In this document: positions 1-16,666 of the stretch, piece after piece
How positions within the stretch are numbered: position 1 is the first letter of the stretch
How the letters are laid out: every line of letters starts with the position of its first letter
IMG/VR virus record: IMGVR_UViG_2585427766_000008
Coordinates: 1-16,666 of that record
Source: a virus
Lineage: Duplodnaviria > Heunggongvirae > Uroviricota > Caudoviricetes
Reading direction: 5' to 3' (one strand)
Length of the DNA stretch: 16,666 nucleotides
Translations under genes and position numbers: made by a program
The notes under the pieces: generated by a model
Databases searched by the model: none
What the model was told of the DNA's origin: nothing
The model's input: the letters and a program-made list of their open reading frames with translations, nothing else

Positions 1-185
1 GTGGTGCACTGTTGTACGGGCTGATCGGCACCTGCCGGTTGAATGGTATCGATCCGGAAGCGTATCTGCGCCATATCCTGAGCGTACTGCCGGAATGGCC
101 TTCCAACCGAGTTGACGAACTCCTGCCATGGAACGTAGTACTCACTAATAAATAAGCGTCAATACGGTGCTCCGTTGACGCTTAC
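1..185 (+). mobile_element. IS66-family insertion sequence, 3' terminal portion (element continues upstream of the window)
   Basis: Transposase C-terminal ORF ends at 155. Read on the minus strand the sequence at 185 downward begins GTAAGCGTC, matching the GTAA-type termini I recall for IS66-family elements. A 10-bp inverted repeat (153-162 / 175-184) sits in the terminal 30 bp. Exact boundary is inferred, not verified. Confidence 0.65.
3..155 (+). CDS. IS66-family transposase (TnpC-like), C-terminal fragment; 5' end outside window
   Basis: Frame 3 translates without stops to GALLYGLIGTCRLNGIDPEAYLRHILSVLPEWPSNRVDELLPWNVVLTNK followed by TAA at 153-155. The LNG-DPEAYL...LLPWN C-terminal motif is characteristic of IS66-family transposases (from memory). 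Not in the ORF track because it has no start codon in the window. Confidence 0.75.
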   Translation, partial: GALLYGLIGTCRLNGIDPEAYLRHILSVLPEWPSNRVDELLPWNVVLTNK

Positions 186-982
186 TTTCCACTGGCAATA
201 CCCGCCATCATTGGGGCCAGGGACTGCATCCACTTGACCTGATCCGGGATTTCAAATGACCCCTGGTCACCGGCATAAGCCATAATATTCTGAACGGCAC
301 CAAAATCTCTGGCCGCACCTTTCAGGGAGTTTTGCCAGACTGCGGCCACTTTTGCCCAGTCCTGAGCAGACGTGCGTGTTGCCGTTGCCGCGCGGGCAAT
401 ATCCGGCATCAGAAAACCGATATCTGACACATTATCAATATTGTCGCTGATGAGTGAACCCACCGCCTCCTGCAGCTCATCCTGATACTGATTGTATTTA
501 AGCGCCCAGCCTTTTATCTGTCCGGCAAGTCCATCCCGCGTTTTATTGTCATATTTTGCGGTGATCGACATATCAATCATTTTGTCCTGAAAAGACATGG
601 ACTGCTGAACGGCAGGGGAAACCGTATGATAAACAGTCTGTGCCATGCCATACGCTTCAATCCCCTGACCATACAGCGCCATGCGGTTAGCTTTCAGCGC
701 ATCACTGGTAGCGGATGCCGCTGACAGACGGCGCTGCTGGCGCTCAATTTGCTCCATGGTGCGGCTTACCCGCAGCAGCTCGCTGTTGAGATGCTGCATC
801 CGGGAAGAACCCAGTTGACCATAACGTTCTGTTGCACGGGTTAAAGCGTTCTGACGTTCCTGCAGGCGGCGTGAGGTATCGCTCAGGGAATCAAGCGCAC
901 GGCGGGTACCGCTCATTGCAGAACGGAATGTGCTACCAATCATCCCGCCGATAACAACGCCGACTGAAAACTGTCCCGACAT
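182..982 (-). pseudogene. Tail tape measure protein, N-terminal fragment, apparently truncated by the IS66-family insertion
   Basis: 266-aa ORF with a Q/R/A/L-rich coiled-coil-like N-terminal region typical of tape measure proteins, in the expected position after the chaperone pair. RBS GGAGG 8 nt upstream of the ATG at 982. The last sense codon (AAG, 185-187) spans the proposed IS junction and the stop TAA (182-184) lies in the IS end. 266 aa is far shorter than a myovirus tape measure. Confidence 0.65.
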
Positions 983-1031
983 AGTGGTTAACCTCCGGGG
1001 AAGGTGAAAAGACGTGAGGGGATAACGCAGA

Positions 1032-1052
1032 ACAGCCGCTACTGGCGGCTGT
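1032..1052 (-). terminator. Hairpin (8-bp stem ACAGCCGC/GCGGCTGT, 5-nt loop) just after the chaperone-extension stop; possible attenuator or RNA-stability element
   Basis: Perfect inverted repeat 1032-1039 / 1045-1052 read directly from the sequence. The downstream minus-strand tract is only moderately U-rich, so terminator function is uncertain. Confidence 0.25.
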
Positions 1053-1057
1053 CTGTA

Positions 1058-1315
1058 CTATGATTTGTCGCCGTACTCGCTTTTTATTTGCTCTTCAGCC
1101 TGCTCCAGCCACATCTCCAGATCGTCAGTATCGAGGGCATCAATCTCCCCCGGCTGAAACCGGAACCATCTCGCCAGCAGCCCCTGCGCCTGCGTCAGCG
1201 CCCTAGTTGCTCTCACCCATCCCCGTGATGAGCTGAAATCGTTTCTGTAACTGCAGGTAATCAGCCAGATCCATATTGTCGAGATCTTCCGGGAGAAGAC
1301 CAGTACTGCGGGCAA
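1058..1315 (-). CDS. Candidate frameshift extension of the tail assembly chaperone (E'/GT-like), in the +1 frame relative to the upstream chaperone ORF
   Basis: Overlaps the 3' end of the 1203-1475 ORF by 113 nt in a different frame and ends 75 nt before the tape measure start. Its acidic C-terminal tail (DALDTDDLEMWLEQAEEQ) resembles chaperone extensions. It is unlikely to be expressed from its own ATG. Confidence 0.45.
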   Translation of the reverse strand: MPAVLVFSRKISTIWIWLITCSYRNDFSSSRGWVRATRALTQAQGLLARWFRFQPGEIDALDTDDLEMWLEQAEEQIKSEYGDKS

Positions 1316-1475
1316 TCAGCGGTTCGTCCCAGTCTGCCGGGTTTTTGCTGATTTTGCGCACCTGCTTCAGGTCTTTTACCGTCAGGCGTTTCAGTTCAAC
1401 CTGCTCAATTCTGGTGCCTGCAGCAGTGGTGAAGGGATAAGACAATTTAAAAGTATCGGATGGGGTCTGTGACAT
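1203..1475 (-). CDS. Tail assembly chaperone (P2 gpE-like / lambda G-like)
   Basis: 90-aa ORF between tail tube and tape measure, with RBS AGGAG 7 nt upstream of the ATG at 1475. Acidic C-terminal half (PEDLDNMDLADYLQ). Its 3' end overlaps a second ORF in another frame, the usual arrangement for tail chaperone frameshift pairs. Confidence 0.55.
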   Translation of the reverse strand: MSQTPSDTFKLSYPFTTAAGTRIEQVELKRLTVKDLKQVRKISKNPADWDEPLIARSTGLLPEDLDNMDLADYLQLQKRFQLITGMGESN

Positions 1476-1550
1476 GATTGTGCTCCTGTGTAAGTTCAGG
1501 GCAGTATGTCGGGAGAAGCGCGTGACGGATATTAAAGGAGATTAAGAAGA

Positions 1551-1566
1551 AGGGGCCGGAGCCCCT
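1551..1566 (-). terminator. Candidate rho-independent terminator after the 93-aa ORF (minus-strand sense)
   Basis: GC-rich stem AGGGGC/GCCCCT with 4-nt loop at 1551-1566, followed on the minus strand by UUCUUCUUAAUCUCCUUUAAU. It starts 7 nt after the stop codon at 1573-1575. Confidence 0.4.
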
Positions 1567-1572
1567 GTGATG

Positions 1573-1854
1573 TCAGCAAGTGCGAAACCCCTTGCAGTTA
1601 CGCAGGAAAGCGATGAGAAGCGTCTTTCCCTCAGATTTGCCGGTGCCGGAGAACCAGTGGTCGGGAGGCTCCCATGCTTCAATCAAATCCGCCAGTTTGC
1701 GGGCCTTTGAACGTGTGCAGTCAATCGGGTCATTGGTTTTACGGGTATTAAAAAGGGTTTCCACCCCCGGAATATCAAGGAGGGTAAACCACGTACCATT
1801 TGACATGCCCAGTGCCGCACATCGTCTTCCTTTATCCGTCAGTTCAACACTCAT
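1573..1854 (-). CDS. Hypothetical protein between tail tube and chaperone (positional analogue of Mu Y; function unknown)
   Basis: 93-aa ORF starting 2 nt after the tail tube stop, with a G-rich RBS-like tract upstream. I recognise no motif. An antisense ORF of similar length also covers this span. Confidence 0.35.
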   Translation of the reverse strand: MSVELTDKGRRCAALGMSNGTWFTLLDIPGVETLFNTRKTNDPIDCTRSKARKLADLIEAWEPPDHWFSGTGKSEGKTLLIAFLRNCKGFRTC

Positions 1855-1856
1855 CG

Positions 1857-2378
1857 TCAGCCCCCGATATTGATACGGTAGTCAGTCAGTTGATCAACAC
1901 CGCCGACCCGGAAGATGTTGGCCAGATAGTCCAGTTGCAGCAGCTCTTCACCATCCAGTACCTGTCTGATATACGTGCAGGTGAAGCTACTGGAGAACTC
2001 GGCGTTCTCGTGCTGTTTGAACGTCCCCAGAGGGTTCTTCTTGAACATAATCGTCAGGAAGGTGACCAGCGGGATTTCGTCAATCAGCCCCTGCGAGCTG
2101 TAGCGCTGGACGCTGGAACGACACTGCAGTGCCAGCGACCTGTACGGGTTAGCGGCAGACAGCATCGCATCGCGGTAAAAGCTGTTCCATTTGATTTCGC
2201 CTTCCAGTTTGTCAAAACCAGCCGGGAGTTCCACCTTACCCACCATCCCCAGCGCCTTGTGTTCCTGCATAATCATGGAGACATCGGGGAGTTTAACTTC
2301 CTCAGCCCGTCCCAGCAGGTTAGTACCATCCAGATAGATGTTGGCATTCGTGATGCGGTTTATCTCAATCTTTGACAT
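1857..2378 (-). CDS. Tail tube protein (Mu gpM / P2 FII-like)
   Basis: 173-aa ORF immediately after the sheath gene (stop/start overlap TGATG at 2376-2380). Size and position are typical of contractile-tail tube proteins. Confidence 0.75.
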   Translation of the reverse strand: MSKIEINRITNANIYLDGTNLLGRAEEVKLPDVSMIMQEHKALGMVGKVELPAGFDKLEGEIKWNSFYRDAMLSAANPYRSLALQCRSSVQRYSSQGLIDEIPLVTFLTIMFKKNPLGTFKQHENAEFSSSFTCTYIRQVLDGEELLQLDYLANIFRVGGVDQLTDYRINIGG

Positions 2379-3805
2379 CAGTTGCCCCCTTTCAGGGTTA
2401 ACAGGTATTCCGAGGTGATCTCAGTCTCAAACGTCAGTCGCTCCAGCGGCGGTGGTGGCGTATATTTGTAGCTCAGCAACAGGTGCCCGGCGGCCAGCTC
2501 CGTCTCCGGATTGCGGGCCGGATCAAACCAGCAACGGAAGCCCAGTACCGCACCATCACCAGTCATTTTGCGACCGTAGGCGTTGACCGACTCCGTCAGT
2601 GCATCAATCAGCGCCTGAGTAATCGGCATGTCGATGTACTGCTGGCTGAAATAACGAATGGACTCGTTGATCACATCACCGGTGCGGCGAACGTTCTCAA
2701 AGTTACGCATATGGGTGACCGTTGGCCATGCTGCCGTCCGGTTACCCCACAGACGAAGGCCGCTGCCGTAACTGCTGAATACCGTGGTGATCCCCTGTTC
2801 GTTAAGCAGGTTTACCTCACTCTGCGGGTCATCAATCATCGCGGACAGCTGGCGCTCCACGCCGGTGATCCCCAGAATCTCCTGATTGGAGGATGACCAC
2901 CAGTAGCCCTTGTCCAGATCGACTCTGGCACGCAGACCTGCTGCACGCTGGCTGAGCGGCTCCAGACGCTCTGTGTTTGTCACCGGGTCATATACCTTCA
3001 CATGCGGATAGCACAGACGGACGCGGTCGGAGCTGGTATTGAAGTTGATGGTGCCTTCCGGGCCACGACCTGCCAGAGCCTGTGCAAAGGTGGTACCGAC
3101 AGGCGCATCAATGTAGGTTACCGCGCCCAGCTTCTCTGCCATGGCGATAAGCTCAACTGCGACACTCTTCTGGGTGCAGAACACCGGCGCAATCAGAATT
3201 TTGGCGAAATAGCCGTACAGGTTGAAGCTGTCGTTAAGCAGCTTCATGCCGGTTCGGTTTCCGGCGCTGTTCACCCCGCCGATGATGTCCGCCGCAGTCA
3301 CCTTCGACGGGTCCGCGTACTCATAGCTCACCTTCACGCTGCCACCGGCCTCAATAGCCTTGCCCAGGTTCGTGAGCACACCCGCCTGCGCATCAACACG
3401 GTAGTCCGTGTTCGCCGTGTGGGTGGTGCTGCCTTCACTGTTTTTCACCACCACATTAGCGACAACCGGATGCGCCAGTCTGGCCTGCCCTGTCGATTTG
3501 TCAAAGGTAACCACCTCATCCTCGATCGCCGTTTTATGTTTCGCCGGGTCGAGGACGTTAATGACCAGAACGGTGCCTGCACCATGGTCATAAATCGCAT
3601 CCAGCGCCTGCGGAATGGTAAAGCCGGTGAACTGGCTGCCAAATGCCGCTGCGTCTTTCTCAGACAGGCACTGTACCAGCGTATTGACATCCCCCATCGG
3701 GGCGGTACCAATCAGGCCAATAACGGCAGATTTCACCGTTTTAACCGGGCGGGCTCCGTTTTCCACCTCAATGGTTTCGGGACCATGCAGATAGTTAGCT
3801 GCCAT
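2378..3805 (-). CDS. Contractile tail sheath protein (Mu gpL-like)
   Basis: 475-aa ORF. Its N-terminal region (VKTVKSAVIGLIGTAP...) and its size and position ahead of the tube gene are typical of myovirus sheath proteins. Confidence 0.85.
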   Translation of the reverse strand: MAANYLHGPETIEVENGARPVKTVKSAVIGLIGTAPMGDVNTLVQCLSEKDAAAFGSQFTGFTIPQALDAIYDHGAGTVLVINVLDPAKHKTAIEDEVVTFDKSTGQARLAHPVVANVVVKNSEGSTTHTANTDYRVDAQAGVLTNLGKAIEAGGSVKVSYEYADPSKVTAADIIGGVNSAGNRTGMKLLNDSFNLYGYFAKILIAPVFCTQKSVAVELIAMAEKLGAVTYIDAPVGTTFAQALAGRGPEGTINFNTSSDRVRLCYPHVKVYDPVTNTERLEPLSQRAAGLRARVDLDKGYWWSSSNQEILGITGVERQLSAMIDDPQSEVNLLNEQGITTVFSSYGSGLRLWGNRTAAWPTVTHMRNFENVRRTGDVINESIRYFSQQYIDMPITQALIDALTESVNAYGRKMTGDGAVLGFRCWFDPARNPETELAAGHLLLSYKYTPPPPLERLTFETEITSEYLLTLKGGN

Positions 3806-4049
3806 GGGCGTCCTCCGTTTTCACTTCGCTGTCACTGCTGCTTCTGCGCTTTGGTGACTGCACAGCCGGTGTGACGGCGGGGTTAGTATCTTCTGGTACC
3901 GGCGGCAGATGCTTCAGCGCCACCAGTACCTTCACGTAGTCATGCTCCTCCGGCAGGGAAACCGCCTTCCCCGGCCAGAGCAGGATTTCGGTTCCGTCCG
4001 ACAGCGTGACGCCGCTGGCCGGGCCGGAATAGCGGTATGCTTTCATCAC
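3795..4049 (-). CDS. Hypothetical small protein (head-tail region) with low-complexity Pro/Ser-rich C-terminus
   Basis: 84-aa ORF overlapping the neighbouring genes by a few nt on both sides; conserved position ahead of the sheath gene in Mu-like gene order. Confidence 0.4.
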   Translation of the reverse strand: MMKAYRYSGPASGVTLSDGTEILLWPGKAVSLPEEHDYVKVLVALKHLPPVPEDTNPAVTPAVQSPKRRSSSDSEVKTEDAHGS

Positions 4050-4510
4050 TCGCTTTCCTCATAGTTCACTTCGGTTAACAGCGGGCCGGACGGTAAATCG
4101 CTGTCTTCGATAAAGATGCTTTCAGTCGCGAAGTCGAGGGCGTATTGCCACAGCCCCCTGACTTCACCGATAAACACCTCGCGGGTCAGCCAGATACGGC
4201 GGCGGCAGCCGGGCGGGGTGTAGCCACCGAGAATGCGGCGGACAGCATCCAGGACATTAATCGCCCCTTTTTTACCGTTGAGCTGGCGGAAGACCACCGT
4301 GACGCAGAGCTGGATAGTCTGAGACTGGATCACCGCACCGGTATCATCCGGCCTGTCAAAGCGCGAACCGGCATAGCTCAGCAGCAACGCGCCAACCGGA
4401 TGGTTCAGGCGATATTCAGCCGGTTTCTCCGGGAAGTACTCCACCTGCAGTTGCGGCAGCTTCTCGCGTAACCGGGCCAGTACCGCATCAAGGACGGGCA
4501 GAACGTTCAT
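4046..4510 (-). CDS. Mu gp37-like protein (DUF1834-like; head completion / tail attachment, function unknown)
   Basis: 154-aa ORF in the conserved slot between the gp36-like gene and the sheath. Family assignment is from memory of Mu-like gene order, not verified. Confidence 0.5.
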   Translation of the reverse strand: MNVLPVLDAVLARLREKLPQLQVEYFPEKPAEYRLNHPVGALLLSYAGSRFDRPDDTGAVIQSQTIQLCVTVVFRQLNGKKGAINVLDAVRRILGGYTPPGCRRRIWLTREVFIGEVRGLWQYALDFATESIFIEDSDLPSGPLLTEVNYEESE

Positions 4511-4956
4511 CAGTATTTCTCCAGTAAACCGTCACGACCGCCGAAAGTGGCCGGGCGACTGCGTACACGAAACTCGCCAGGCTCAGGCACATCTTTCTGA
4601 GTGGACGGCAGCCCCAGCGTGAGCCTGTTATCACGTAACTCCCTGAGTTGCCGCAGCGCTTCTTTGTGGTCATCCTTCACCGTATCCGGGAGGTCACCTT
4701 CCGGGCGGCGGGCGTAGAGCCGGTAACGGACCAGCGTGATGGCAATGTCCCGCAGAACAGTCGGTATCTCTGCCAGTGGCAGGATATAGCGTCCGCGCAG
4801 ATGGGCATCAATCAGCTCGTCGGCATAGCGGATACAGCTGTCCACCACACGGGTATTCACTGTTGCAGGCGAGTCGAAGTCCATCTCTTCACTGGTGAGC
4901 TCGATAAGCGTCCGCTCCGGCACCTGCGCAAGCAAATCCTCCAGGGTGCAGTACAT
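4510..4956 (-). CDS. Mu gp36-like protein (DUF1320-like; putative head-tail connector component)
   Basis: The track ORF (4510-5118) overlaps the upstream gene by 160 nt. The internal ATG at 4954-4956 lies 1 nt after the upstream stop (TGAcATG) and gives a 148-aa protein starting MYCTLEDLL, which resembles DUF1320-family N-termini as I recall them. Confidence 0.55.
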   Translation of the reverse strand: MYCTLEDLLAQVPERTLIELTSEEMDFDSPATVNTRVVDSCIRYADELIDAHLRGRYILPLAEIPTVLRDIAITLVRYRLYARRPEGDLPDTVKDDHKEALRQLRELRDNRLTLGLPSTQKDVPEPGEFRVRSRPATFGGRDGLLEKY

Positions 4957-4957
4957 G

Positions 4958-5296
4958 TCACACCCCGCGCAGGATACGAATGACGTCGCCTTCACCCCCG
5001 GCTTCATCAAGTGCAATACCACAGGATTTACCGTCGCCGGACTGCGGCACGGCTCTGGCCTGAGCATCTGACTGAACAGCCACACCACGGCTGACAGCGG
5101 CCCCGGCCTCGACAGCAATAATGCCCAGAACGCTCACCGGCGTGCTGTCGCCGGTAACAGCATCCACTTCGGCAACCCCGAGCGCTGCGGCACCGGCTTT
5201 ACAGGGGGTATTATCTGCCCCGACAAAACGCTGCTGTGCCAGTGCTGCCCCTGCCGTTACGGTTGTGATCAGAATGACCTGCTGAGTGGTTCCCAT
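4958..5296 (-). CDS. Small Ala/Gly/Val-rich head-associated protein (possible decoration or cement-type protein)
   Basis: 112-aa ORF directly after the major head gene, in the position of Mu J-like or decoration proteins. Identity is uncertain. Confidence 0.45.
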   Translation of the reverse strand: MGTTQQVILITTVTAGAALAQQRFVGADNTPCKAGAAALGVAEVDAVTGDSTPVSVLGIIAVEAGAAVSRGVAVQSDAQARAVPQSGDGKSCGIALDEAGGEGDVIRILRGV

Positions 5297-5305
5297 AACG
5301 CCTCC

Positions 5306-6259
5306 TTATTTACTGATACCGGTAATGAGATACCCGGCATCGCCACCAACCACGGCGACTTTGTAGATATCGGTATAACGGCAGTACTTCACCTTGCCAC
5401 CGGCTCCGTCGTATTTGTCGGCAACAGGCATCCCCTTACGACGCAGGGTGTAGCCGAAGGACGGCTCGTTCTCGTCCGCGCTGTCCGCCCCCGGCTGCGG
5501 TTTGCCGACATAGTGCAGCATCAGATTGTCTCCCCAGATATCCGCCGGCACGCTGTTCTTATCCATTGCCGCTTTCATGGACGGCAGGGAGACTGGGGCA
5601 CCGATGACGATCTCTTCGATCTGAAAGAGGTCCTGCAGGATTTCTGTGGTGATGCGCTTGCGTTCGTTGGCTCCGATGGCGGCCTGAATCGCCGGGTGGA
5701 ACTTCAGCAGCGCCATCACGCCGGCCCCCATGGTCATCAGGTTAGGACGCAGCCCCGTGGCCGTACGGACCGCTTCCATACCGGCTTCAATCACCCCGAT
5801 GGGGTCCCCCTTACCACCGGCCCAGCGATCACTGGCTGTCAGTTTTTTGACGTGCCCGGTACGGTAGACCTTTTCATCCTGAGCCAGACGGGCAGCGATA
5901 AGTTCACGGCGCAGGTTCACGCCATTCGTGGCGCGACGGATGGCCTTGCTCTCTTCGTTAAACATGGACTCCGCCTGCTCGCGATAGTCCACCGGCGCAG
6001 CCAGATCGTGTTCACCCAGCACCAGGTCCAGCGTGCCTGTTTTTTCACGAACCAGAACATTGCTGTCCGCCCCGACGGCACGCTCGGTGTCATATTCCAC
6101 AAAGGCGGTTTTCCCGAAGGTCGGTACACGCACGCCTTCCTTGTCCGTCAGCACGACGGGGAAAATACGTTCGCCGATGAATGCGGCATTTTTATAGCCA
6201 CGGGCGATACTGGTCAGTACCGGATCAACGACACGTTTACCTTTTAAGTAATCAGACAT
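5306..6259 (-). CDS. Major head (capsid) subunit (Mu gpT-like)
   Basis: 317-aa ORF immediately after the I protease/scaffold gene; size and position match the Mu-type major head protein. Confidence 0.75.
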   Translation of the reverse strand: MSDYLKGKRVVDPVLTSIARGYKNAAFIGERIFPVVLTDKEGVRVPTFGKTAFVEYDTERAVGADSNVLVREKTGTLDLVLGEHDLAAPVDYREQAESMFNEESKAIRRATNGVNLRRELIAARLAQDEKVYRTGHVKKLTASDRWAGGKGDPIGVIEAGMEAVRTATGLRPNLMTMGAGVMALLKFHPAIQAAIGANERKRITTEILQDLFQIEEIVIGAPVSLPSMKAAMDKNSVPADIWGDNLMLHYVGKPQPGADSADENEPSFGYTLRRKGMPVADKYDGAGGKVKYCRYTDIYKVAVVGGDAGYLITGISK

Positions 6260-6273
6260 GCTCTCTCCTTAAA

Positions 6274-6741
6274 TTACAGGCAGCGTGCGACAGCAGCCTC
6301 ATAGCTGATGCCTTCTTTTTTGGACAGGGCCACTGCTTTCTGATGCAGGGCCAGACGCTCAGGATCGGCTTCCGCAAACTCTGCCACATCCACCTTCACC
6401 GTGTCGCCGACACGCTCTTTTGTGGCCTGTTCGGCGAAATTCATCACCGGCTCCCCGTCGGAGAGCAATGAACGAAAGGCGGTGGCCAGCGGTGTGCGGC
6501 TTTCCCCCTCAGCAAACTCCACCGGCTTGTCGCCACCGGCGACGGCATCCAGCAGGGCAACCACCACGGAGGAGGCGCGGGGAGCCAGACGGCCCTCTGC
6601 GACCAGTTTTTCTGCAAAGGCCACATTGTCCTTATGCAGTTGCTCCTGTCTGACCTGTGCATCACGCGCATCGCGATCAGCAGCCTGCTGCTTCAGGCGG
6701 CGGTTCTCCTCCTGAAGGGCTTCAATCTCTTCTTTTGTCAT
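6274..6741 (-). CDS. Candidate nested scaffold protein (Mu gpZ-like) from an in-frame internal start within the I gene
   Basis: In-frame ATG at 6739-6741 (residue 217 of the I ORF) preceded by GAGGA with a 7-nt spacer. It would give a 155-aa coiled-coil-rich product (MTKEEIEALQEENRRLKQ...). Confidence 0.4.
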   Translation of the reverse strand: MTKEEIEALQEENRRLKQQAADRDARDAQVRQEQLHKDNVAFAEKLVAEGRLAPRASSVVVALLDAVAGGDKPVEFAEGESRTPLATAFRSLLSDGEPVMNFAEQATKERVGDTVKVDVAEFAEADPERLALHQKAVALSKKEGISYEAAVARCL

Positions 6742-7389
6742 CGATGATTCCTCGTTACTTGCGGAAGACGGCACCTGGCCTGTCTCACTGAATTGCGCAC
6801 CTGCTGCATCCTGCGACGGTGTGTCGCGGTACGCCTCTTCGCGCAGATTGTTGAGCTGCCATTCCGGCAGGACTTTTTCTGCTTCGTCCAGACTGAAGCG
6901 GGCGATCAGAAAATCGCGCAGCTTTCCCCACAGGGAGGCATTCGTGATGGCCTGCCAGTCGGCGAACTCCACCACACCTTCTTCCTGCTCACTGAAGGAC
7001 ACCTGTTTCAGCCCCTTGACGGAAGGTGGCTGTGCCCCGAGAAAGCCCACATGGCGCAGGTAGAGCACGCCGGGCTTCGGATTGGACGGTGAATCCGGGA
7101 GGTAGAAAGAGGCGGACACTTTTTTGAATCGTCCGTCGGTGACCATCTCAGCAAACTGCGGGTCCAGCTGGGCAGGCTCTGCCATCAGATCGACGCCGCT
7201 GAGCGACAGGGCTTTCACCCAGCCCCACGCCGGGTCTTCCGTTCTGGGATGACCAATCACGAGTGGTGCTTCATGGACGGACGGGTCATAGGCTTTCACG
7301 CAGGCGGCAAGATCGTCTGGCGTGAACGGCAGTTTTTTGCCGTGCATATCGGTATGAGTACCGGCTTTAAAAATGTGAATGGCTGACAT
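6274..7389 (-). CDS. Head maturation protease / scaffold protein (Mu gpI-like)
   Basis: 371-aa ORF with a protease-like N-terminal region and an Ala/Glu/Arg-rich coiled-coil C-terminal third; it sits between G and the major head gene as in Mu. Confidence 0.8.
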   Translation of the reverse strand: MSAIHIFKAGTHTDMHGKKLPFTPDDLAACVKAYDPSVHEAPLVIGHPRTEDPAWGWVKALSLSGVDLMAEPAQLDPQFAEMVTDGRFKKVSASFYLPDSPSNPKPGVLYLRHVGFLGAQPPSVKGLKQVSFSEQEEGVVEFADWQAITNASLWGKLRDFLIARFSLDEAEKVLPEWQLNNLREEAYRDTPSQDAAGAQFSETGQVPSSASNEESSMTKEEIEALQEENRRLKQQAADRDARDAQVRQEQLHKDNVAFAEKLVAEGRLAPRASSVVVALLDAVAGGDKPVEFAEGESRTPLATAFRSLLSDGEPVMNFAEQATKERVGDTVKVDVAEFAEADPERLALHQKAVALSKKEGISYEAAVARCL

Positions 7390-7525
7390 TTTGCTGTCCC
7401 GCGTTATGTTGTCGGAGACAGTTTGTGAGAAATGCAGGCCCGGCGATTTTAATCTGCTTTAGAAAACATCAGGGGAGAAGGACAGGGAAAGCAATACGGT
7501 GAACCGGAGGCGGTTATAAAACAGA
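7390..7525 (-). promoter_or_regulatory. Candidate late promoter region upstream of the I gene (PI-like)
   Basis: 136 bp of non-coding sequence between a terminator-like hairpin and the I start. It contains a -10-like TAAAAT on the minus strand. Mu has a C-dependent promoter in front of I. No activator site could be identified by eye. Confidence 0.3.
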
Positions 7526-7557
7526 GGCTGTAAAGCCTTTATAAAGGTAATACAGCC
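7526..7557 (-). terminator. Candidate rho-independent terminator after gene G (end of the lys-to-G transcription unit)
   Basis: Stem GGCTGTA/TACAGCC (7526-7532 / 7551-7557) enclosing the perfect 12-bp palindrome CCTTTATAAAGG. On the minus strand it is followed directly by UCUGUUUUAUAA. Confidence 0.45.
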
Positions 7558-7603
7558 CCTCATTCGCTGGCAATGATAAATCACCCGCCTGAAGAGAGAA
7601 AAC

Positions 7604-8062
7604 TCAGCGACGGGCCGCTGATTCAAGATGGCGGACAATGGTATCGAGGATGGGGATTACCACTTCAGGCTGTAGTTCTCCATCCCCCGTCACCGGCAGG
7701 AACGGGCGGGCCGGAAGTTCAACAGACTCATTACGCCCCGTTTTACCCCCGAACTGGTGAATGGCACCGTAAACAACGTTGGTCCCCACAACAGCCTGCC
7801 GGTCGTCATGGTCGGTTGATACTGACCCCATCAGACGCCCGGTATCCTGCAGTGTCTGCCCGTCACGCTCTTCCGCTGCCAGCGAGGGCATCCACCCCGG
7901 ACGCCCCTCATCAAGAAAGTTAAACTGTGTTTCCGCCAGCAGGGTTCCGGCAATTTTGCGCATCGCGGGCTCCAGGTCTGTGGCAGCAAGATCCAGCGCA
8001 CGGAGGCTCCGGCGCAGGGATTTATCGTTAATGGTGATACTGACCAGGTTATCGGAAGCCAT
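7604..8062 (-). CDS. Virion morphogenesis protein (Mu gpG-like)
   Basis: 152-aa ORF starting 3 nt after the F gene stop; it contains an FNFLDEGRPGW-type segment and has the size and position of Mu G. Confidence 0.7.
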   Translation of the reverse strand: MASDNLVSITINDKSLRRSLRALDLAATDLEPAMRKIAGTLLAETQFNFLDEGRPGWMPSLAAEERDGQTLQDTGRLMGSVSTDHDDRQAVVGTNVVYGAIHQFGGKTGRNESVELPARPFLPVTGDGELQPEVVIPILDTIVRHLESAARR

Positions 8063-8064
8063 TG

Positions 8065-8886
8065 TTATCCTCTCAGTTCCTGTTGTGCCAGTGGCTGAAG
8101 CGTACCCTGATAGCGGGCCAGGTCGGGACGGTATGCTGCCCCCGGTGCATAAGACCAGCCGACGTCGGTGGTCACCTTCGTGGTGCCGGTATTAAAGGTG
8201 GCCACGTTCCGCATTTCGCCGGTTTTCTCTGAGACCAGTTTCAGTTCCTGGCCCATGGCAGAGCCGGAGCTGATAACCTTCAGGCCACGGGCACGTACAT
8301 CCGCCGCACTCAGGGCAATCACACTACAGCGGCAGCGCCAGCCGTTCGGCGGGTAAAATGCCTGCCAGAACGGGTCATCCCAGCGCAGCACCAGACCATG
8401 CAGCGCCAGATGGCTCCTGCGGGTATGGCTGTCGTTGATGCCGGTATACATCCAGTACGGCCTGTCGTCGACGTTTTCCATCTGTTCCGCCCAACGACCG
8501 GCGCTGTAGAGTACGGACATATTGGTGCGAAAGATGGTATCGAGCCGCCACGGACTGCCCTGCTGAATGGTGACTGGCTCACCCGTTACCGGGTCAGTCG
8601 TGTCACGTGGTCCCCACCATCCCTTACGCTTCAGCACCGGCTCCAGCTCCTGCCGGAACCAGCGATCGGTTTTTCCTTCATCGACAGCCTGCTGCAGTGC
8701 CCCGCGAATATCTTCCAGGATATCCAGGCGGGTCACTTTAGCAACGGTAAAGGCGCGGGCATGGGCCTCCTGCCACATTTCTTCCCAGTCCCAGGTAATC
8801 TGATACCCTTTGGACTTCAGGTAGTTGATTGCCCGCTTCGGGGGAAGCGTCATGCAGTACGCCAGTTCAGCCGTTGTCACGCTCAT
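8065..8886 (-). CDS. Head morphogenesis protein (Mu F-like)
   Basis: 273-aa ORF after the portal gene (20-nt overlap) carrying the HTRRSHLALHG...PPNGWRCRC motif characteristic of the Mu F / SPP1 gp7 family. Confidence 0.85.
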   Translation of the reverse strand: MSVTTAELAYCMTLPPKRAINYLKSKGYQITWDWEEMWQEAHARAFTVAKVTRLDILEDIRGALQQAVDEGKTDRWFRQELEPVLKRKGWWGPRDTTDPVTGEPVTIQQGSPWRLDTIFRTNMSVLYSAGRWAEQMENVDDRPYWMYTGINDSHTRRSHLALHGLVLRWDDPFWQAFYPPNGWRCRCSVIALSAADVRARGLKVISSGSAMGQELKLVSEKTGEMRNVATFNTGTTKVTTDVGWSYAPGAAYRPDLARYQGTLQPLAQQELRG

Positions 8887-10363
8887 GCAGACGCCCCCAG
8901 ATATTTGTCACAAAGAGAATGCGGGCCAGCCGCTCCTGCAGATCGTCCGTGTTCATCTGAGGGTAGAGCTCCGCCAGTTCGCCCAGCAGCTCAGACGGGT
9001 TAACCCCATTTTCGACCCGCCTGAACAGAGGTGCCAGGACGGGTTCCAGCGTGCCATTTAACGCGCCTCCGTTCATCAGAATGTCCAGCGCGTCGTCAAG
9101 CTGCTGCTGAGCCTGAATATCAGCATCAATCGCCTCGGCAAATGACAGCGGCAGCATGTTATTCTGTCGTTCCGACGGTGGTGTCTCGTCAATATCGCCG
9201 TCCTGCAGTTGGTACTCACGCTTGAAGTACTGCGGGGTCAGACGCAGACCCGCCCGGGTGAGTTTTTCGTCGCGGGTGGCACGGGTGTCATCAATGGCCT
9301 CCTGTTCCCACATGGCCCAGACCGGACACGGCACATCGCCGAAGTTCAGGGTGACCACCGTTCTGATGACCTGATTCACTGCCGCCTGAATGATGTCCGC
9401 ATCCGCATCGCGGATATCAGCCGTTACCTCCAGCCCGGCCTGTGCAGAGGCCTTGTTACTGTTCGCTTCCGTGGTCTGATTCTGACCGAGTAATGCAATG
9501 GAGATCTCACTGCGTGACAGTGTGATCAGCTCGCGGAATACCTCGCTGCTGTCCGCCTTACCATCCGCGGCTTTGAGTTCGATGCTGCTGTCATCGGGGA
9601 TGGCGGCCACCGCGTCCTCCACCATCTGCTCCATGGAGTCCAGCAGTTTTTCAATCTCTGCATCATTTGCACCCCTCGGGTGCTTACCGATCACCCACGG
9701 GGAGCCAAACTTTTCGGCAAAGCGGAGCCAGAATTTCATCCCGCCTTTCTTGAAGGCGACCGGCCAGAAGCACATGGACAGGTCCGGGAAACCGTAAGGA
9801 TTGTCATACGAGGCATCCTGTGCCGGCACCACGAATTTTGACGGTGACAGCAGCTCACCCTCCACACCCGCATCACGCGCCCGGAAGCGCAGGCAGTTGT
9901 CCGTATCAAACTGAAACCACTCAGGCGGTTTGCCGACAATATCCGTCACCGCCCACGACCTGACCGAACGGCCCCACATGATTTCACAGGGCTGATACCC
10001 GTAGAGCACGGCATCGCTCATTTCACCGATGATGCGGGACAGATCCAGATCGTCGAGCATGTCGCGGATGAAACGGAAGACCCGGGCAGAGGCGTGACCA
10101 CGCTCCAGTCCACGCTCCAGCGATTTAAGCGCTGCTTTACGTCTGCGGATACAGCCCCCGACCAGCGGGTCGGTGCGCAGTTCGCGGTAGATACGGATAT
10201 CCCGTCCCTGAGCCTTGAGAATGGGATCAGGATTGGGCAGATACATGCCCAGTCCGTAAAAGTCGATCGCGCGGCTGCGGGAGGCAATCTGCGCGGTCAG
10301 TGATTTCTGAGGCTCAGAAAAAGCAACAAATTCATCGGGTGAAACCCAGATACCCCTCGCCAT
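8867..10363 (-). CDS. Portal protein (Mu gp29-like, DUF935-type)
   Basis: 498-aa ORF directly after the large terminase (TGATG overlap at 10361-10365); size and gene order fit. Confidence 0.8.
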   Translation of the reverse strand: MARGIWVSPDEFVAFSEPQKSLTAQIASRSRAIDFYGLGMYLPNPDPILKAQGRDIRIYRELRTDPLVGGCIRRRKAALKSLERGLERGHASARVFRFIRDMLDDLDLSRIIGEMSDAVLYGYQPCEIMWGRSVRSWAVTDIVGKPPEWFQFDTDNCLRFRARDAGVEGELLSPSKFVVPAQDASYDNPYGFPDLSMCFWPVAFKKGGMKFWLRFAEKFGSPWVIGKHPRGANDAEIEKLLDSMEQMVEDAVAAIPDDSSIELKAADGKADSSEVFRELITLSRSEISIALLGQNQTTEANSNKASAQAGLEVTADIRDADADIIQAAVNQVIRTVVTLNFGDVPCPVWAMWEQEAIDDTRATRDEKLTRAGLRLTPQYFKREYQLQDGDIDETPPSERQNNMLPLSFAEAIDADIQAQQQLDDALDILMNGGALNGTLEPVLAPLFRRVENGVNPSELLGELAELYPQMNTDDLQERLARILFVTNIWGRLHERDNG

Positions 10364-11958
10364 CAGAATCCCTCCAGCATACGGGCCGCCTGACGACGAC
10401 GGCGTGAGCTTGCCTTCACCGGCCCTTTGTTAATTTCACGGCTGGCGAAATACGCCAGCGCCAGTGCGATGGCTGAATCCCCGTGGCGTTTACCACCGTC
10501 AGCCTTTGCTTTTGAGCGTTGCTCCGGTACGCGGGGGACACCGTTCACCACCTGAACGGCCCGCAGGTCATCCAGTGTGTCTTCATCCTTTGGTAAGTCC
10601 ACCAGGTTACCGTCTTCCAGTGCAGCTTTGACCGGAGGCATATGCTCCCGGTACCAGCCTTCGGTTGGCATCACCTGCTGAACCCGGCTGGAGCCGTAGC
10701 GCTGCATGGCGTATTCAGCCAGATAGGCACCATTACCACGGGCATCAAACGCTGCACCCAGCAGACCGGGCAGGCCATCCATCAGATACCAGGTGATTTG
10801 CTCCTGCTGTCTGAACGGCACGTTACGCAGCTCCAGTACGAATGGCACGCGTCGTACCAGGTTCTTCTCCTGCAGCAGGGGATAGTCCACCGACAAATCA
10901 CCGCTACGGCCAAAGTCGCGCCCCAGGAAAGAGCGGGCATCAGTGGGGAGTGCCTCCAGCAAGGGTTTCAGATACTCATCAAGCCAGTCCTGCGTCTCGC
11001 GGAAGCGAACCTCATCAGACAGCAGTTCATAACCTTCCTTGCAGGTCAGACGCAATACCGGCGTATCAGCGGACATGCGGGACTCTATCAGGGCACGGGA
11101 CAGCCAGGCACCGCCACCGTTGGCCGGAATACAGTCAAGCTCTTCGGATGCGCCGGCACCGTAGAATTTGTACACCGATGCCATCCAGGCCTGCTCGGAT
11201 GCCTCCGACCATTCCTTCCCGGTGCGCAGACAGACGCGCCGGAACAGCCCCTCAGATACGGCTTCCCGGAAAGTGATGCGATGTATGCTGCCTCCCTGAC
11301 GTCCGGCACGGATATCCCCGATAAGCGTATTGAACGGATTGTCGTCACCGTTATGGGTGGAGATAACGCGTACCTTTCCCCCCCAGATAAGCATCGCCAG
11401 CGCCGCTTTCAGCAGTTCGTCCAGTTGCTCATGGAACGCCGCTTCGTCGATAACAATAATACCCTGACGGCCACGCAGGTTAGACGGGCGGCTGGAGAGC
11501 GCAACAATACGAAAGCCGGAGTCAGGAAATTTGATGGTGTAAGTCCTGATGTGTTTGTCGTCGTCGTCCTCTTCCCAGAATCCTTCTTCAATTTCACTGG
11601 CCGCATAGTTGAATGCCCGTGCCCACATCGCACACGCCTGAATGTATTCGACGGTCATGTCCTGGTTATAAGCGATGTAATACACATTCATCCCGCCTGC
11701 TGGCGCAGAAGAGGCGGCGGTCAGTACGTTATCGGATGCCTCAGCCCATGTAATACCGGTACGACGGCTCTTTTCTATCACCTTAAGCGGAGAGGTGTCT
11801 GCCACCCAGCGCTGCTGGTAAGGCAACAGAACGGGAGGGGCATCCAGCGCCGAGGTATCAGGCAAAACGGGAGCAAGGTTATTCCTCCCGTCCATGGGAC
11901 TCATCCCTTCGGGGCCGCCGCCAGCGGCGTTTAAAATCACTCCGGATGATTTTGTCAT
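10363..11958 (-). CDS. Terminase large subunit (Mu gp28-like)
   Basis: 531-aa ORF with a Walker B-like GIIVIDEAAF segment. Its start overlaps the upstream gp27-like gene (ATGA at 11955-11958). Confidence 0.85.
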   Translation of the reverse strand: MTKSSGVILNAAGGGPEGMSPMDGRNNLAPVLPDTSALDAPPVLLPYQQRWVADTSPLKVIEKSRRTGITWAEASDNVLTAASSAPAGGMNVYYIAYNQDMTVEYIQACAMWARAFNYAASEIEEGFWEEDDDDKHIRTYTIKFPDSGFRIVALSSRPSNLRGRQGIIVIDEAAFHEQLDELLKAALAMLIWGGKVRVISTHNGDDNPFNTLIGDIRAGRQGGSIHRITFREAVSEGLFRRVCLRTGKEWSEASEQAWMASVYKFYGAGASEELDCIPANGGGAWLSRALIESRMSADTPVLRLTCKEGYELLSDEVRFRETQDWLDEYLKPLLEALPTDARSFLGRDFGRSGDLSVDYPLLQEKNLVRRVPFVLELRNVPFRQQEQITWYLMDGLPGLLGAAFDARGNGAYLAEYAMQRYGSSRVQQVMPTEGWYREHMPPVKAALEDGNLVDLPKDEDTLDDLRAVQVVNGVPRVPEQRSKAKADGGKRHGDSAIALALAYFASREINKGPVKASSRRRRQAARMLEGF

Positions 11959-12500
11959 GTGGCAATCCCCAGAATCTCGCGACGAAGCGCCTGTACTGCG
12001 TCGCTTGACAGTCCCCCCTTACGGGCAATTTTCTCGGCGTTGCTGGCTGCCTGCTGCGCTCTGGCCCGTACTTCAGACTGGAACTTTTTGAGGTTGACGG
12101 ACGCGCGGGACAGCGTAGCCACATTCTTCGCCACCTTCGACAGCAGGGCCACGCGTTCTTTAGGATCGACTTCACCTTCTTCCGCCTCCTGCAACTGGAC
12201 AATACTCTCGAACAGCTCGGTCTGAATAAGGGCTATCACAGCCTCCGAACGCGCATCCTGATCGTCTGCTGCGCCTTCGGTCAGCATGCGGGCCGCTTCT
12301 GTTGCCGCACGGATAGCACCATAGCGGCGCTCAATCTTCTGTCCATAGCGATGGATAGCGGATTTGCTGATGACGTACCCCCGCTCACGCAGCAGGGACT
12401 CCAGCTCGTTATACCCGCTGAAGCCGGATTCAGTCAGCGCCCGTTCAAGCCAGCGGCGCACGTCTTCCGGCAGCTTTTCTATTGTGCTGCGTCTGGCCAT
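11955..12500 (-). CDS. Mu gp27-like protein (DUF3486-type; putative small terminase / DNA-binding subunit)
   Basis: 181-aa ORF immediately upstream of the large terminase, with a basic N-terminus and a coiled-coil C-terminal half. Confidence 0.6.
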   Translation of the reverse strand: MARRSTIEKLPEDVRRWLERALTESGFSGYNELESLLRERGYVISKSAIHRYGQKIERRYGAIRAATEAARMLTEGAADDQDARSEAVIALIQTELFESIVQLQEAEEGEVDPKERVALLSKVAKNVATLSRASVNLKKFQSEVRARAQQAASNAEKIARKGGLSSDAVQALRREILGIAT

Positions 12501-12811
12501 TATTCACTCCAGTACTTTTCCGGGCGGGCAATACCCGGACCACATTCCACGGTGTATTCCACCAGGTCTACGCCGAGGCGGGTCAGGTCAGCAAACCAGT
12601 CGCCAGAAGGTTTTTTCTCCAGCTCAACCATTTTACGGTCAGCCAGATAATCCAGTTCGCGGCGCAGTTCCAGCGGTGTGGTGTCCGGGTAGATGGCGCG
12701 GGACACGTCCAGCAGCAACGTTTCACTGGCGGTGTAAGGGCGGGTTTTGTTCAGGGCAACCAGCAAACTCCAGCGCAGGGATTCGCGGCGTACCCGGGTA
12801 ATATCGACCAT
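12500..12811 (-). CDS. Hypothetical protein (Mu gp26 position)
   Basis: 103-aa ORF whose ends abut both neighbours; no recognisable motif. Confidence 0.4.
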   Translation of the reverse strand: MVDITRVRRESLRWSLLVALNKTRPYTASETLLLDVSRAIYPDTTPLELRRELDYLADRKMVELEKKPSGDWFADLTRLGVDLVEYTVECGPGIARPEKYWSE

Positions 12812-13137
12812 TATTGACCTCCGGTATTGCGGTACTGCTGTACCACTTCCAGTTTGTTATAAAGCGCGTCCAGTTTGGCCTCGATGACTGTCTGGCCACG
12901 GATATAATCCTCGCGACGGACATAATTCAGCGGTAAATCCGCTTTAAATCGCATAAATTCTTTTTCCAGCTCGCCCCAGTTGGAGGCGGACTGTTGCAGG
13001 GCCTGTTCAAGGGAGGCGAATCGTGCCGCCTGGCGTTCTTCTGTTTTACTGAACAACCATTTGGCGAGCCCTCCCACAAACCCCATGAAGGTGAGCAGAA
13101 AACTCACCACCGTCCAGAATTCAACCTGCAGTGTCAT
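12811..13137 (-). CDS. Small membrane protein with N-terminal TM helix and coiled-coil region (Mu gp25-like)
   Basis: 108-aa ORF with the hydrophobic N-terminal segment WTVVSFLLTFMGFVGGLAKWLF followed by charged coiled-coil-like sequence; it lies between the spanin pair and the packaging genes. Confidence 0.45.
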   Translation of the reverse strand: MTLQVEFWTVVSFLLTFMGFVGGLAKWLFSKTEERQAARFASLEQALQQSASNWGELEKEFMRFKADLPLNYVRREDYIRGQTVIEAKLDALYNKLEVVQQYRNTGGQ

Positions 13138-13784
13138 TTCTGTAATCCTTCCCGTTCATCCAGTAACGCGTTTATCTGGTTCCGCCAGCGACGACATTGT
13201 CCTGCGTTGTCGATGATGTTGGCGAGAACGTCACGCTGGGAGACACCCGAATCGCGTAACCGGGTGTCAGTGGTTTCAGGTTGCCCGGTCGCTGTGCCAG
13301 AGCGGGTGCCAGCGGCGGCAACTGAGTCTGAATGACCGGTGTCGACGGATGCGTTGTCATATCCGAGTGCGGCGTTGTACTGGCGCACGAAACCGCGAGT
13401 AAACACGCACTCAATGGGATGGCTCTTACCTTTTTCATCAATCCAGCGCTGTGTGACATCGTTAATTTGCCCCTGTAGTTGTTTGTTCCGGCTCTCCAGT
13501 TGAGCAATCTGCTCAAGATAACCGGCTTCAGCCCGCTGCCCGGCGGCCACCTGCTCCTGATACCGTCTGGCCCAGGCCCGCAGCGCAGCATTCTCAAGCG
13601 TTGCCTGCTCCGTTTTGTACGCGTCAAATGCTGACTGCAACTGACTGAGCGCGGTATCACCGTCACGCTTTGCAGAGTCATGACCACTTCTGTATCCCAT
13701 GGCATACAGGCCGACCAGAAAGGCATTGATAAGAATGGCCAGCAGAATGCCGCGCCACGGCAGCTTTTTAACCAGATGCCGCAC
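13134..13784 (-). CDS. i-spanin (Rz-like inner-membrane spanin component)
   Basis: N-terminal TM segment (ILLAILINAFLVGLYAMGY) followed by a long periplasmic coiled-coil region (Q/A/L/E-rich). The track ORF starts at 13886 and would overlap the endolysin by 119 nt; a GTG at 13782-13784 preceded by GGGGAGG is the more likely start. The start position was worked out by codon arithmetic from the track translation. Confidence 0.6.
   Translation of the reverse strand: MRHLVKKLPWRGILLAILINAFLVGLYAMGYRSGHDSAKRDGDTALSQLQSAFDAYKTEQATLENAALRAWARRYQEQVAAGQRAEAGYLEQIAQLESRNKQLQGQINDVTQRWIDEKGKSHPIECVFTRGFVRQYNAALGYDNASVDTGHSDSVAAAGTRSGTATGQPETTDTRLRDSGVSQRDVLANIIDNAGQCRRWRNQINALLDEREGLQK
13172..13438 (-). 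CDS. o-spanin (Rz1-like outer-membrane lipoprotein) embedded in the +1 frame of the i-spanin gene
   Basis: Internal ATG at residue 122 of the 13172-13801 track ORF gives an 88-aa product, MKKVRAIPLSACLLAVSC..., with a lipoprotein signal, a lipobox-like LAVSC and a Pro-rich mature region (PVIQTQLPPLAPALAQRPGNLKPLTPG). It lies entirely inside the i-spanin ORF. Confidence 0.65.
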   Translation of the reverse strand: MKKVRAIPLSACLLAVSCASTTPHSDMTTHPSTPVIQTQLPPLAPALAQRPGNLKPLTPGYAIRVSPSVTFSPTSSTTQDNVVAGGTR

Positions 13785-14849: not shown

Positions 14850-14963
14850 GTGTGTCTCCTCGTTTGGTGGAGACAGCATCACAAATGTGGCGGGATACGG
14901 ATTTTAAACAGCGTTAATAGTGAAGATGTAAACGTGCACTGCATGATGACTTTGAAAGAACGA

Positions 14964-14991
14964 CCAGCCCGGTACCCGAACACCGGGCTGG
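14964..14991 (-). terminator. Inverted repeat hairpin (10-bp stem, 8-nt loop) in the lysis / methyltransferase intergenic region; candidate minus-strand terminator or regulator site
   Basis: CCAGCCCGGT (14964-14973) pairs perfectly with ACCGGGCTGG (14982-14991). On the minus strand it is followed by UCGUUCUUUCAAAG. Confidence 0.35.
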
Positions 14992-16231: not shown

Positions 16232-16303
16232 TTTGAATTGGGTAGCTACGATAACAGAGGCAACAGGAATGCCAAGTATATGGTTCTGGATATCTGAAAA
16301 CGC

Positions 16304-16666
16304 GGTAATGACTCCAACTTATTGATAGTGTTTTATGTTCAGATAATGCCCGATGACTTTGTCATGCAGCTCCACCGATTTTGAGAACGACAGCGACTTC
16401 CGTCCCAGCCGTGCCAGGTGCTGCCTCAGATTCAGGTTATGCCGCTCAATTCGCTGCGTATATCGCTTGCTGATTACGTGCAGCTTTCCCTTCAGGCGGG
16501 ATTCATACAGCGGCCAGCCATCCGTCATCCATATCACCACGTCAAAGGGTGACAGCAGGCTCATAAGACGCCCCAGCGTCGCCATAGTGCGTTCACCGAA
16601 TACGTGCGCAACAACCGTCTTCCGGAGACTGTCATACGCGTAAAACAGCCAGCGCTGGCGCGATTT
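16304..16666 (-). mobile_element. IS1, partial (terminal inverted repeat plus 3' part of insB; element continues beyond the window end)
   Basis: The plus strand from 16304 reads GGTAATGACTCCAACTTATTGATAGTGTTTTATGTTCAG..., the reverse complement of the canonical IS1 end, followed by sequence encoding the canonical InsB C-terminus. Confidence 0.9.
16319..16666 (-). CDS. insB: IS1 transposase InsB (InsAB' C-terminal portion); 5' end outside window
   Basis: The translation ends ...[88 protein letters not shown], matching IS1 InsB as I recall it. The frame stays open upstream to the window edge (116 codons, 16319-16666). Confidence 0.9.

What the first reader, a model, noticed from the sequence alone, without database searches (positions are those of the whole stretch)
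150..990. IS66-family element inserted into the tape measure gene; distal tail genes missing
The tape measure reading frame runs straight into the IS terminus: its last codon spans the 185/186 junction and its stop codon lies in the IS end. Only 266 aa of a protein that is normally several hundred residues longer remain. The baseplate and tail-fibre genes and the invertible host-range segment that follow the tape measure in Mu-type phages are not present on this side. The prophage therefore cannot build a tail.
Basis: partly seen in the sequence, partly recalled or inferred. Interest (0 to 1): 0.5.

Follow-up and report, generated by a model that had tools for sequence, protein, structure and literature searches.

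The report
IS-split tape measure gene, contig-end artefact
An ordinary jumping gene (ISEc43, IS66 family) has landed in the tail tape measure gene of a Mu-like E. coli prophage. The "missing" tail genes are not missing: they sit on a neighbouring contig, because the draft assembly broke at the repeated element.

Summary
Window 1-185 is the last 185 bp of an ISEc43 (IS66-family) copy, ending ...GCTTAC at 185. The tape measure ORF (182..982, minus strand) matches residues 1-266 of an 896-aa protein at 266/266. Its last codon, AAG, spans 185/186, and its TAA stop lies in the IS terminal repeat.

"IS inserted into the tape measure gene" is supported. "Distal tail genes missing" is not. The window is a whole draft contig (JOQO01000066.1) that ends in ISEc43 on the left and in IS1 on the right, so both ends are assembly breaks at repeats.

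I found both complementary junctions in two contigs of one IMG genome. L011 carries the rest of the tape measure gene, the baseplate genes and the tail-fibre genes. It ends ...TTTCCACT|GTAAGCG, which gives the 8-bp target duplication TTTCCACT. L012 carries the other IS1 end, the 9-bp duplication TGAAAACGC and the whole early region.

So this is a simple insertion with no deletion. The prophage is a Bcepmuvirus-type transposable phage. It differs at 3 of 16,118 bases from an uninterrupted copy in E. coli DLI.5a. Tail assembly is probably abolished by the split gene, but that is inferred. This is routine prophage decay and of low interest.

The parts
1..185 (+). Last 185 bp of an ISEc43 copy (IS66 family). 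The contig begins inside the IS. The right terminal repeat ends ...GACGCTTAC at 185.
   Evidence: 100% identical to L009 3501-3685, the end of a 2,541-bp ISEc43 copy that PGAP annotates 'IS66-like element ISEc43 family transposase'.
3..155 (+). C-terminal 50 codons and stop of the IS66-family transposase TnpC (...LLPWNVVLTNK*).
   Evidence: Pfam PF13817 DDE_Tnp_IS66_C, E=7e-18, 64.9 bits against a cut-off of 30. The same domain is on record for the called gene.
150..187 (.). Hairpin formed by the IS terminal repeat (13-nt arms, 12-nt loop). Read on the minus strand it is followed by UUUAUU.
   Evidence: the repeat finder I1. RNA fold -24.9 kcal/mol, z = -4.5. The simple terminator scan did not call it.
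186..193 (.). Right copy of the 8-bp target-site duplication TTTCCACT made by the ISEc43 insertion.
   Evidence: The same octamer directly precedes the left IS end (GTAAGCGTAAAGCC...) at L011 9101-9108. The uninterrupted sequence has one copy.
182..982 (-). N-terminal fragment of the tail tape measure gene: 266 codons, then TAA at 182-184 supplied by the IS.
   Evidence: 266/266 identity to residues 1-266 of the 896-aa protein WP_000016542.1. Pfam PF10145 PhageMin_Tail cut off at profile position 108 of 201, whereas the full protein reaches position 183.
1058..1475 (-). Tail assembly chaperone pair just upstream of the tape measure gene: an E-like ORF at 1203..1475 and a GpE-like ORF at 1058..1198. 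This is the expected gene-order context.
   Evidence: PF10109 Phage_TAC_7, E=2e-22. PF06528 Phage_P2_GpE is weak (E=0.006, 16.4 bits, below the cut-off of 23). PGAP annotation.
16295..16303 (.). Left copy of the 9-bp IS1 target-site duplication TGAAAACGC.
   Evidence: The same nonamer follows the other IS1 end at L012 329-337.
16304..16666 (.). 363 bp of an IS1 end (GGTAATGACTCCAACTTATTGATAG...). The contig stops inside it. It splits a 401-aa accessory gene of the prophage.
   Evidence: 100% identical to IS1A-type copies. Identity to the uninterrupted prophage stops at 16303.

Best explanation
A copy of ISEc43 transposed into the tape measure gene of a Bcepmuvirus-type (Mu-like, transposable) prophage of E. 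coli. ISEc43 is a 2.5-kb IS66-family element with tnpA, tnpB and tnpC. It entered between the second and third base of codon 266 and duplicated the 8-bp target TTTCCACT. In this orientation and frame the IS terminal repeat, which reads GTAAGCG, completes the Lys codon as AAG and supplies an immediate TAA stop. The gene is thereby split into a 266-aa N-terminal ORF and a 630-codon remainder with no start of its own. Nothing was deleted: the remainder and the baseplate, tail-fibre and invertible-segment genes lie on the far side of the IS. They seem absent only because the window is a short-read contig that ends inside the repeated IS. The other end of the contig stops in the same way, in an IS1 that has split an accessory gene. 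Shown: the junction, the IS identity, both target duplications, and the presence of the distal genes. Inferred: a split tape measure protein cannot template a tail, so the prophage, now hit twice by IS elements, cannot make infectious particles. Transcription of the downstream tail genes may also be reduced by the 2.5-kb antisense insert and its terminal hairpin.
For: The window is the whole contig JOQO01000066.1 of GCA_000714135.1. Window 186-16303 differs at 3 bases from the uninterrupted prophage in E. coli DLI.5a, where the tape measure protein is 896 aa and is followed by tail, X, D, V, W, J, I, fibre, fibre-assembly and recombinase genes. Window 1-185 equals the ISEc43 end. The predicted left junction was found once in IMG/VR (L011, 11,370 bp). 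It reads ...CCTCTTTTCCACT|GTAAGCGTAAAGCC, then 2,262 bp of ISEc43 with tnpA (HTH_Tnp_1) and tnpB (TnpB_IS66). Outside the invertible-segment crossover, L011 differs from DLI.5a at 1 base, and its ORFs of 294, 384, 198, 115, 367, 192 and 386 aa match the annotated distal tail genes. The complementary IS1 junction with the 9-bp duplication is in a second contig of the same IMG genome, 2585427766 (L012). That contig is 100% identical over 10,529 bp to the DLI.5a early region. The predicted 581-aa C-terminal fragment exists exactly as KEL37986.1 (E. coli 5-172-05_S3_C3), and the 266-aa fragment is KEL38982.1. The junction recurs in five other independent assemblies.
Against: I could not read the source assembly itself. 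That L011 and L012 come from the same genome as the window rests on three things: two independent, exactly complementary junctions in one IMG genome, near-identity to the same reference prophage, and neighbouring KEL accessions. About 93 bp of the IS, between the end of L011 and the start of the window, was not recovered. The contig carrying the invertase end of the prophage was not found either. Loss of tail assembly and polarity on downstream genes are inferred, not measured. A second related prophage in the genome could in principle supply a tape measure protein in trans.
Confidence: 0.93

Rival explanations
1. One reading: the IS marks the edge of a deletion or rearrangement, for example recombination between two ISEc43 copies, that removed or displaced the rest of the tape measure gene, the baseplate genes, the fibre genes and the invertible segment.
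For: Nothing to the left of the IS end is visible in the window. E. coli genomes hold several IS66-family copies that could recombine: a median of 3 and up to 42 places per genome match this query.
Against: The complementary junction with a perfect 8-bp duplication, followed by the full set of distal tail genes, exists on L011. L011 is from the same IMG genome that also holds the complementary IS1 junction for the other end of the window. The exact predicted 581-aa C-terminal fragment is deposited from an isolate with a neighbouring accession. A target duplication on both sides of one IS is the signature of simple insertion, not of inter-IS recombination.
Confidence: 0.04
2. The junction is an assembly chimera: the short-read assembler wrongly joined an IS end to an intact tape measure gene.
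For: The junction lies 185 bp from a contig end in a draft assembly. No complete RefSeq E. coli genome, of 5,426, contains it.
Against: The identical junction occurs in five other independently assembled samples. The reciprocal junction exists with the correct 8-bp duplication. The break falls exactly at the canonical IS terminus.
Confidence: 0.02
3. The 266-aa ORF is a native short protein and the stop codon is its own.
For: None beyond the ORF being intact and carrying a Pfam hit.
Against: Uninterrupted copies, identical in DNA up to base 186, read on for 630 more codons. The Pfam domain is cut in mid-profile. The stop lies in sequence that is 100% ISEc43.
Confidence: 0.01

Closest known systems
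ISEc43 and other IS66-family insertion sequences (IS66, IS679, ISEc8, ISEc23)
   Same: The window end is 100% identical to ISEc43 copies on E. coli plasmids and chromosomes. The reference copy has tnpA-tnpB-tnpC, is 2,541 bp long and has imperfect terminal repeats that start with GTAAGCG. The insertion made an 8-bp target duplication. The family traits are as described by Han et al. 2001 (J Bacteriol 183:4296) and Gourbeyre et al. 2010. I recall these from memory; the Han paper was not held.
   Different: Nothing about the element itself differs. Only this insertion site is particular. It was not found in 5,426 complete RefSeq E. coli genomes.
Bcepmuvirus-type transposable phages: Escherichia phage PhiKM (PQ738613.1), Klebsiella phage KP12, and the uninterrupted prophages in E. 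coli DLI.5a, E30 and EcPF7
   Same: 99.4% DNA identity to PhiKM over 12.3 kb and 85.6% to KP12. Three mismatches in 16.1 kb against DLI.5a. Same gene order: Mu-type portal, Mu F, gp36/gp37, sheath, tube, chaperone, tape measure. DDE transposase, Gam and Mor lie in the early arm.
   Different: Here the tape measure gene is split by ISEc43 and an accessory gene is split by IS1. The relatives have both uninterrupted.
IS-inactivated (cryptic or decaying) prophages in enterobacterial genomes
   Same: Insertion sequences accumulate in prophage structural genes and leave a defective prophage. This is a well-documented route of prophage decay (general knowledge).
   Different: No difference of kind.

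Membership tests
IS66 family (ISEc43) | Terminal inverted repeats beginning 5'-GTAAGCG | tested here: met
   The right end reads ...CGCTTAC at window 179-185. The left end reads GTAAGCGTAAAGCC at L011 9109 and L009 1145.
IS66 family (ISEc43) | 8-bp target-site duplication | tested here: met
   TTTCCACT occurs at window 186-193 and at L011 9101-9108, and once only in the uninterrupted sequence.
IS66 family (ISEc43) | Three-gene organisation tnpA-tnpB-tnpC, about 2.5 kb | tested here: met
   L011 has ORFs at 9190-9627 (HTH_Tnp_1) and 9624-9974 (TnpB_IS66, E=3e-36). The window holds the TnpC C-terminus (DDE_Tnp_IS66_C). The reference copy is 2,541 bp. About 93 bp of this particular copy was not recovered.
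IS66 family (ISEc43) | DDE catalytic core in TnpC | not tested
   Only the last 50 residues lie in the window. I relied on the PGAP name of the identical reference copy.
Phage tail tape measure protein | Tape-measure domain (PF10145), with the gene placed directly after the tail assembly chaperone pair | tested here: met
   PF10145 E=7e-15. The chaperone (PF10109) lies directly upstream. Gene order as.
Phage tail tape measure protein | Full-length reading frame, as in uninterrupted homologues | tested here: not met
   266 of 896 codons are present. The domain match stops at profile position 108 of 201.
Bcepmuvirus / Mu-like transposable phage | Mu-type head module plus DDE transposase, MuB-like ATPase, Gam and Mor | tested here: met
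   Portal_Mu, Phage_Mu_F, Mu_Gp36 and Gp37 are on the window's genes. The early genes are annotated in DLI.5a, on DNA 100% identical to L012. PhiKM is classified in Bcepmuvirus.
Bcepmuvirus / Mu-like transposable phage | Integration by transposition at varied chromosomal sites | tested here: met
   The prophage lies beside otsB in EcPF7 and inside a symporter gene between yidJ and yidL in DLI.5a. Its flank differs again in L012.
IS1 | IS1 terminal repeat and 9-bp target-site duplication | tested here: met
   100% identity to IS1A-type copies. TGAAAACGC occurs at window 16295-16303 and at L012 329-337.

The most novel reading that the evidence does not exclude
The twice-hit prophage may be a stably inherited, domesticated remnant of one gut E. 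coli lineage. The same junction appears in several unrelated human-gut metagenome assemblies but in none of 5,426 complete genomes. Disruption of the tape measure gene could have been selected because it blocks virion production while immunity, Dam methylase and other accessory genes are kept. The 266-aa fragment might also have acquired a role of its own.
Probability: 0.05. Interest if true: 0.25.

Novelty: already known. Interest (0 to 1): 0.08.

Why it matters
It matters mainly as a caution. IS fragments at both ends of a draft contig mean that the assembly broke at a repeat. They do not mean that the genes beyond are gone. Biologically this is one more prophage being inactivated by insertion sequences. 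The junction could serve as a lineage marker for the E. coli clone that carries it. It opens no new question.

Tried and rejected
- **Right junction scans.** An exact scan for the right junction found nothing in the GTDB species-representative genomes, the JGI metagenomes or IMG/VR.
- **Left junction scan.** The JGI metagenomes also lacked the left junction. That absence is uninformative, because the lineage is not in that collection at all.
- **Homology search.** A search with the C-terminal 630 aa listed only longer tape measure variants with higher scores, so it did not surface the fragment I wanted.
- **Exact look-up.** I enumerated the possible start codons of the remainder and looked each sequence up exactly. 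The 581-aa version was found.
- **Fetching the contig.** The contig was then reached through a DNA pattern scan of IMG/VR.
- **Contig L006.** It had been returned as carrying the 266-aa protein. In fact it is a native contig that happens to end at codon 266 (AAA, no IS), so I do not count it as support.
- **Terminator scan.** The consensus scan did not call the IS-end hairpin. I therefore give the polarity argument little weight.
- **Literature.** A search for the WGS accession found nothing, and the founding IS66-family paper was not held.

Full report
**What is in the window.** The minus-strand ORF 182..982 encodes 266 residues. It carries the N-terminal half of the tape-measure domain PF10145: profile positions 3-108 of 201, E=7e-15. 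Just upstream of it on the minus strand are a tail assembly chaperone (PF10109), the tube and sheath genes and a Mu-type head module. On the plus strand, bases 3-155 encode the last 50 residues of an IS66-family TnpC (PF13817, E=7e-18).

**The junction.** A megablast of window 1-1100 against 5,426 complete E. coli genomes splits the query cleanly.
- Bases 186-1100 match "phage tail tape measure protein" genes at 100% in many genomes.
- Bases 1-185 match copies of "IS66-like element ISEc43" at 100%.
- No genome covers both parts.

The native sequence reads ...AGT GGA AAA GAG GCT.... The window reads ...AGT GGA AAG TAA GCG TCA ACG.... The IS terminus (...GCTTAC on the plus strand) therefore ends at base 185. 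Codon 266 is completed by one IS base and stays Lys. The TAA at 182-184 is IS sequence.

**The uninterrupted form.** In E. coli EcPF7 (L001) and DLI.5a (L010) the same gene is 2,691 nt, or 896 aa. The window fragment is 266/266 identical to its N-terminus. Window 186-16303 differs from DLI.5a at only three positions.

In these relatives the tape measure gene is followed by a tail protein, X, D, V, W, J, I, the tail fibre, fibre assembly genes in both orientations and a small serine recombinase.

The early arm carries a repressor, a DDE transposase, an ExeA-type ATPase, Gam and Mor. The prophage sits at a different chromosomal site in each genome. The closest deposited phage is Escherichia phage PhiKM, at 99.4% over 12.3 kb, classified in Bcepmuvirus. 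So this is a transposable Mu-like phage of the BcepMu type.

**Why the distal genes seem absent.** An exact look-up of the 266-aa protein returned a contig of exactly 16,666 bp, JOQO01000066.1 of GCA_000714135.1. The window is therefore a whole draft contig. Its right end, 16304-16666, is an IS1 end, 100% identical to IS1A-type copies. Identity to the DLI.5a prophage stops at 16303. A contig bounded by two multicopy IS elements is the normal product of short-read assembly. It carries no information about what lies beyond them.

**Finding the other side.** I modelled a simple insertion using a full 2,541-bp ISEc43 copy (L009 1145-3685, left end GTAAGCGTAAAGCC).
- The predicted C-terminal ORF from the first in-frame start (TTG, 581 aa) exists exactly in GenBank as KEL37986.1 from E. 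coli 5-172-05_S3_C3, on a longest contig of 11,370 bp. The 266-aa fragment is KEL38982.1.
- A pattern scan for native sequence, a gap of 0-16 bases and then the left IS end found one IMG/VR contig of 11,370 bp (L011).
- L011 reads ...AGCCTCTTTTCCACT|GTAAGCGTAAAGCC.... TTTCCACT therefore flanks the IS on both sides, which is the 8-bp duplication typical of the IS66 family.
- L011 then runs 2,262 bp into ISEc43, with tnpA, tnpB and most of tnpC.
- On the phage side L011 carries the rest of the tape measure gene and ORFs of the annotated lengths for the downstream tail, baseplate and fibre genes. It shows a single mismatch to DLI.5a outside the crossover of the invertible segment.

**The IS1 end.** The same approach found L012, from the same IMG genome (2585427766). 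It reads IS1 end, then TGAAAACGC, then 10,529 bp that are 100% identical to the DLI.5a early arm through to the prophage end, then a different host flank. The nonamer equals window 16295-16303, which is the 9-bp duplication typical of IS1.

Two independent and exactly complementary junctions in one genome tie L011 and L012 to the window's strain or clone. The reconstructed order is:

fibres and baseplate, tape measure C-part (L011) | ISEc43 | tape measure N-part ... Dam ... (window) | IS1 | repressor, transposase ... Mor, host DNA (L012).

**Is the junction real?** Five further assemblies from other samples carry the same junction with 27-273 nt of IS and no mismatch. A sixth contig, L006, merely ends at codon 266 with the native AAA and is not counted.

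**Mechanism and consequence.** The following is shown:
- a simple ISEc43 transposition with an 8-bp duplication
- a truncated ORF ending at an IS-borne stop
- a promoterless 630-codon remainder
- all distal tail genes present.

The rest is inferred from established knowledge that tape measure proteins are required to start tail-tube polymerisation and to set tail length in long-tailed phages. On that basis the split gene should abolish tail formation. The IS is transcribed against the direction of the late genes, and its end forms a stable hairpin followed by UUUAUU on the late-transcript strand. Downstream tail genes may therefore also be under-expressed. The consensus terminator scan did not call this hairpin, so this point is weak.

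**Verdict.** This is a known kind of event, IS-mediated prophage decay, seen through a contig-edge artefact. It is of low interest.

Noticed in passing
window 16295-16666; L012 1-337: A second insertion: IS1 with the 9-bp duplication TGAAAACGC splits a 401-aa accessory ORF lying between the Dam methylase gene and a nucleoid-associated-protein gene. The ORF has no Pfam hit and only a weak KwaA-like (Kiwa defence) match, E=8e-5.
   Followed up: partly
window 1058-1475 (minus strand), codon 91 at 1203-1205: The tail assembly chaperone ORF ends at TAG after 90 codons in the window, DLI.5a and EcPF7; PGAP calls this an 'internal stop'. Phage PhiKM and metagenome contig L006 have CAG there and a 111-aa ORF. 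The GpE-like ORF (1058-1198) lies in the +1 frame. It is unclear whether the TAG is a tolerated polymorphism, a recoding site or a second tail defect.
   Followed up: partly
L011 1-1662 versus L010 4481-6142: The tail-fibre C-terminal and fibre-assembly segment is inverted in the source genome relative to DLI.5a, with a repeat of about 210 bp at the crossover. This fits a Gin-type invertible host-range segment. L011 ends inside it, probably another assembly break.
   Followed up: partly
window 14360-16303 versus L001: The region between the lysis genes and the early arm (membrane ORFs, Dam, accessory ORF) diverges from the EcPF7 prophage at 90-94% or is unalignable, while the structural genes are 99.75% identical. 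It looks like a variable cargo region.
   Followed up: no
window 150-187: The ISEc43 right terminal repeat is itself one arm of a 13-bp hairpin that overlaps the tnpC stop codon (-24.9 kcal/mol, z=-4.5). It could be a terminator or a transposase-binding structure.
   Followed up: partly
L006 3003-3800: A metagenome contig ends exactly at codon 266 with the native AAA, so its partial protein is identical to the IS-truncated one. This may be an assembly-graph branch point in a sample that holds both alleles. It shows that exact-protein look-ups can return false junction carriers.
   Followed up: yes
L012 10857-11053; L010 40637: A prophage 100% identical over 10.5 kb sits at a different chromosomal site in the source genome than in DLI.5a, which implies recent independent transposition or infection events.
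   Followed up: no
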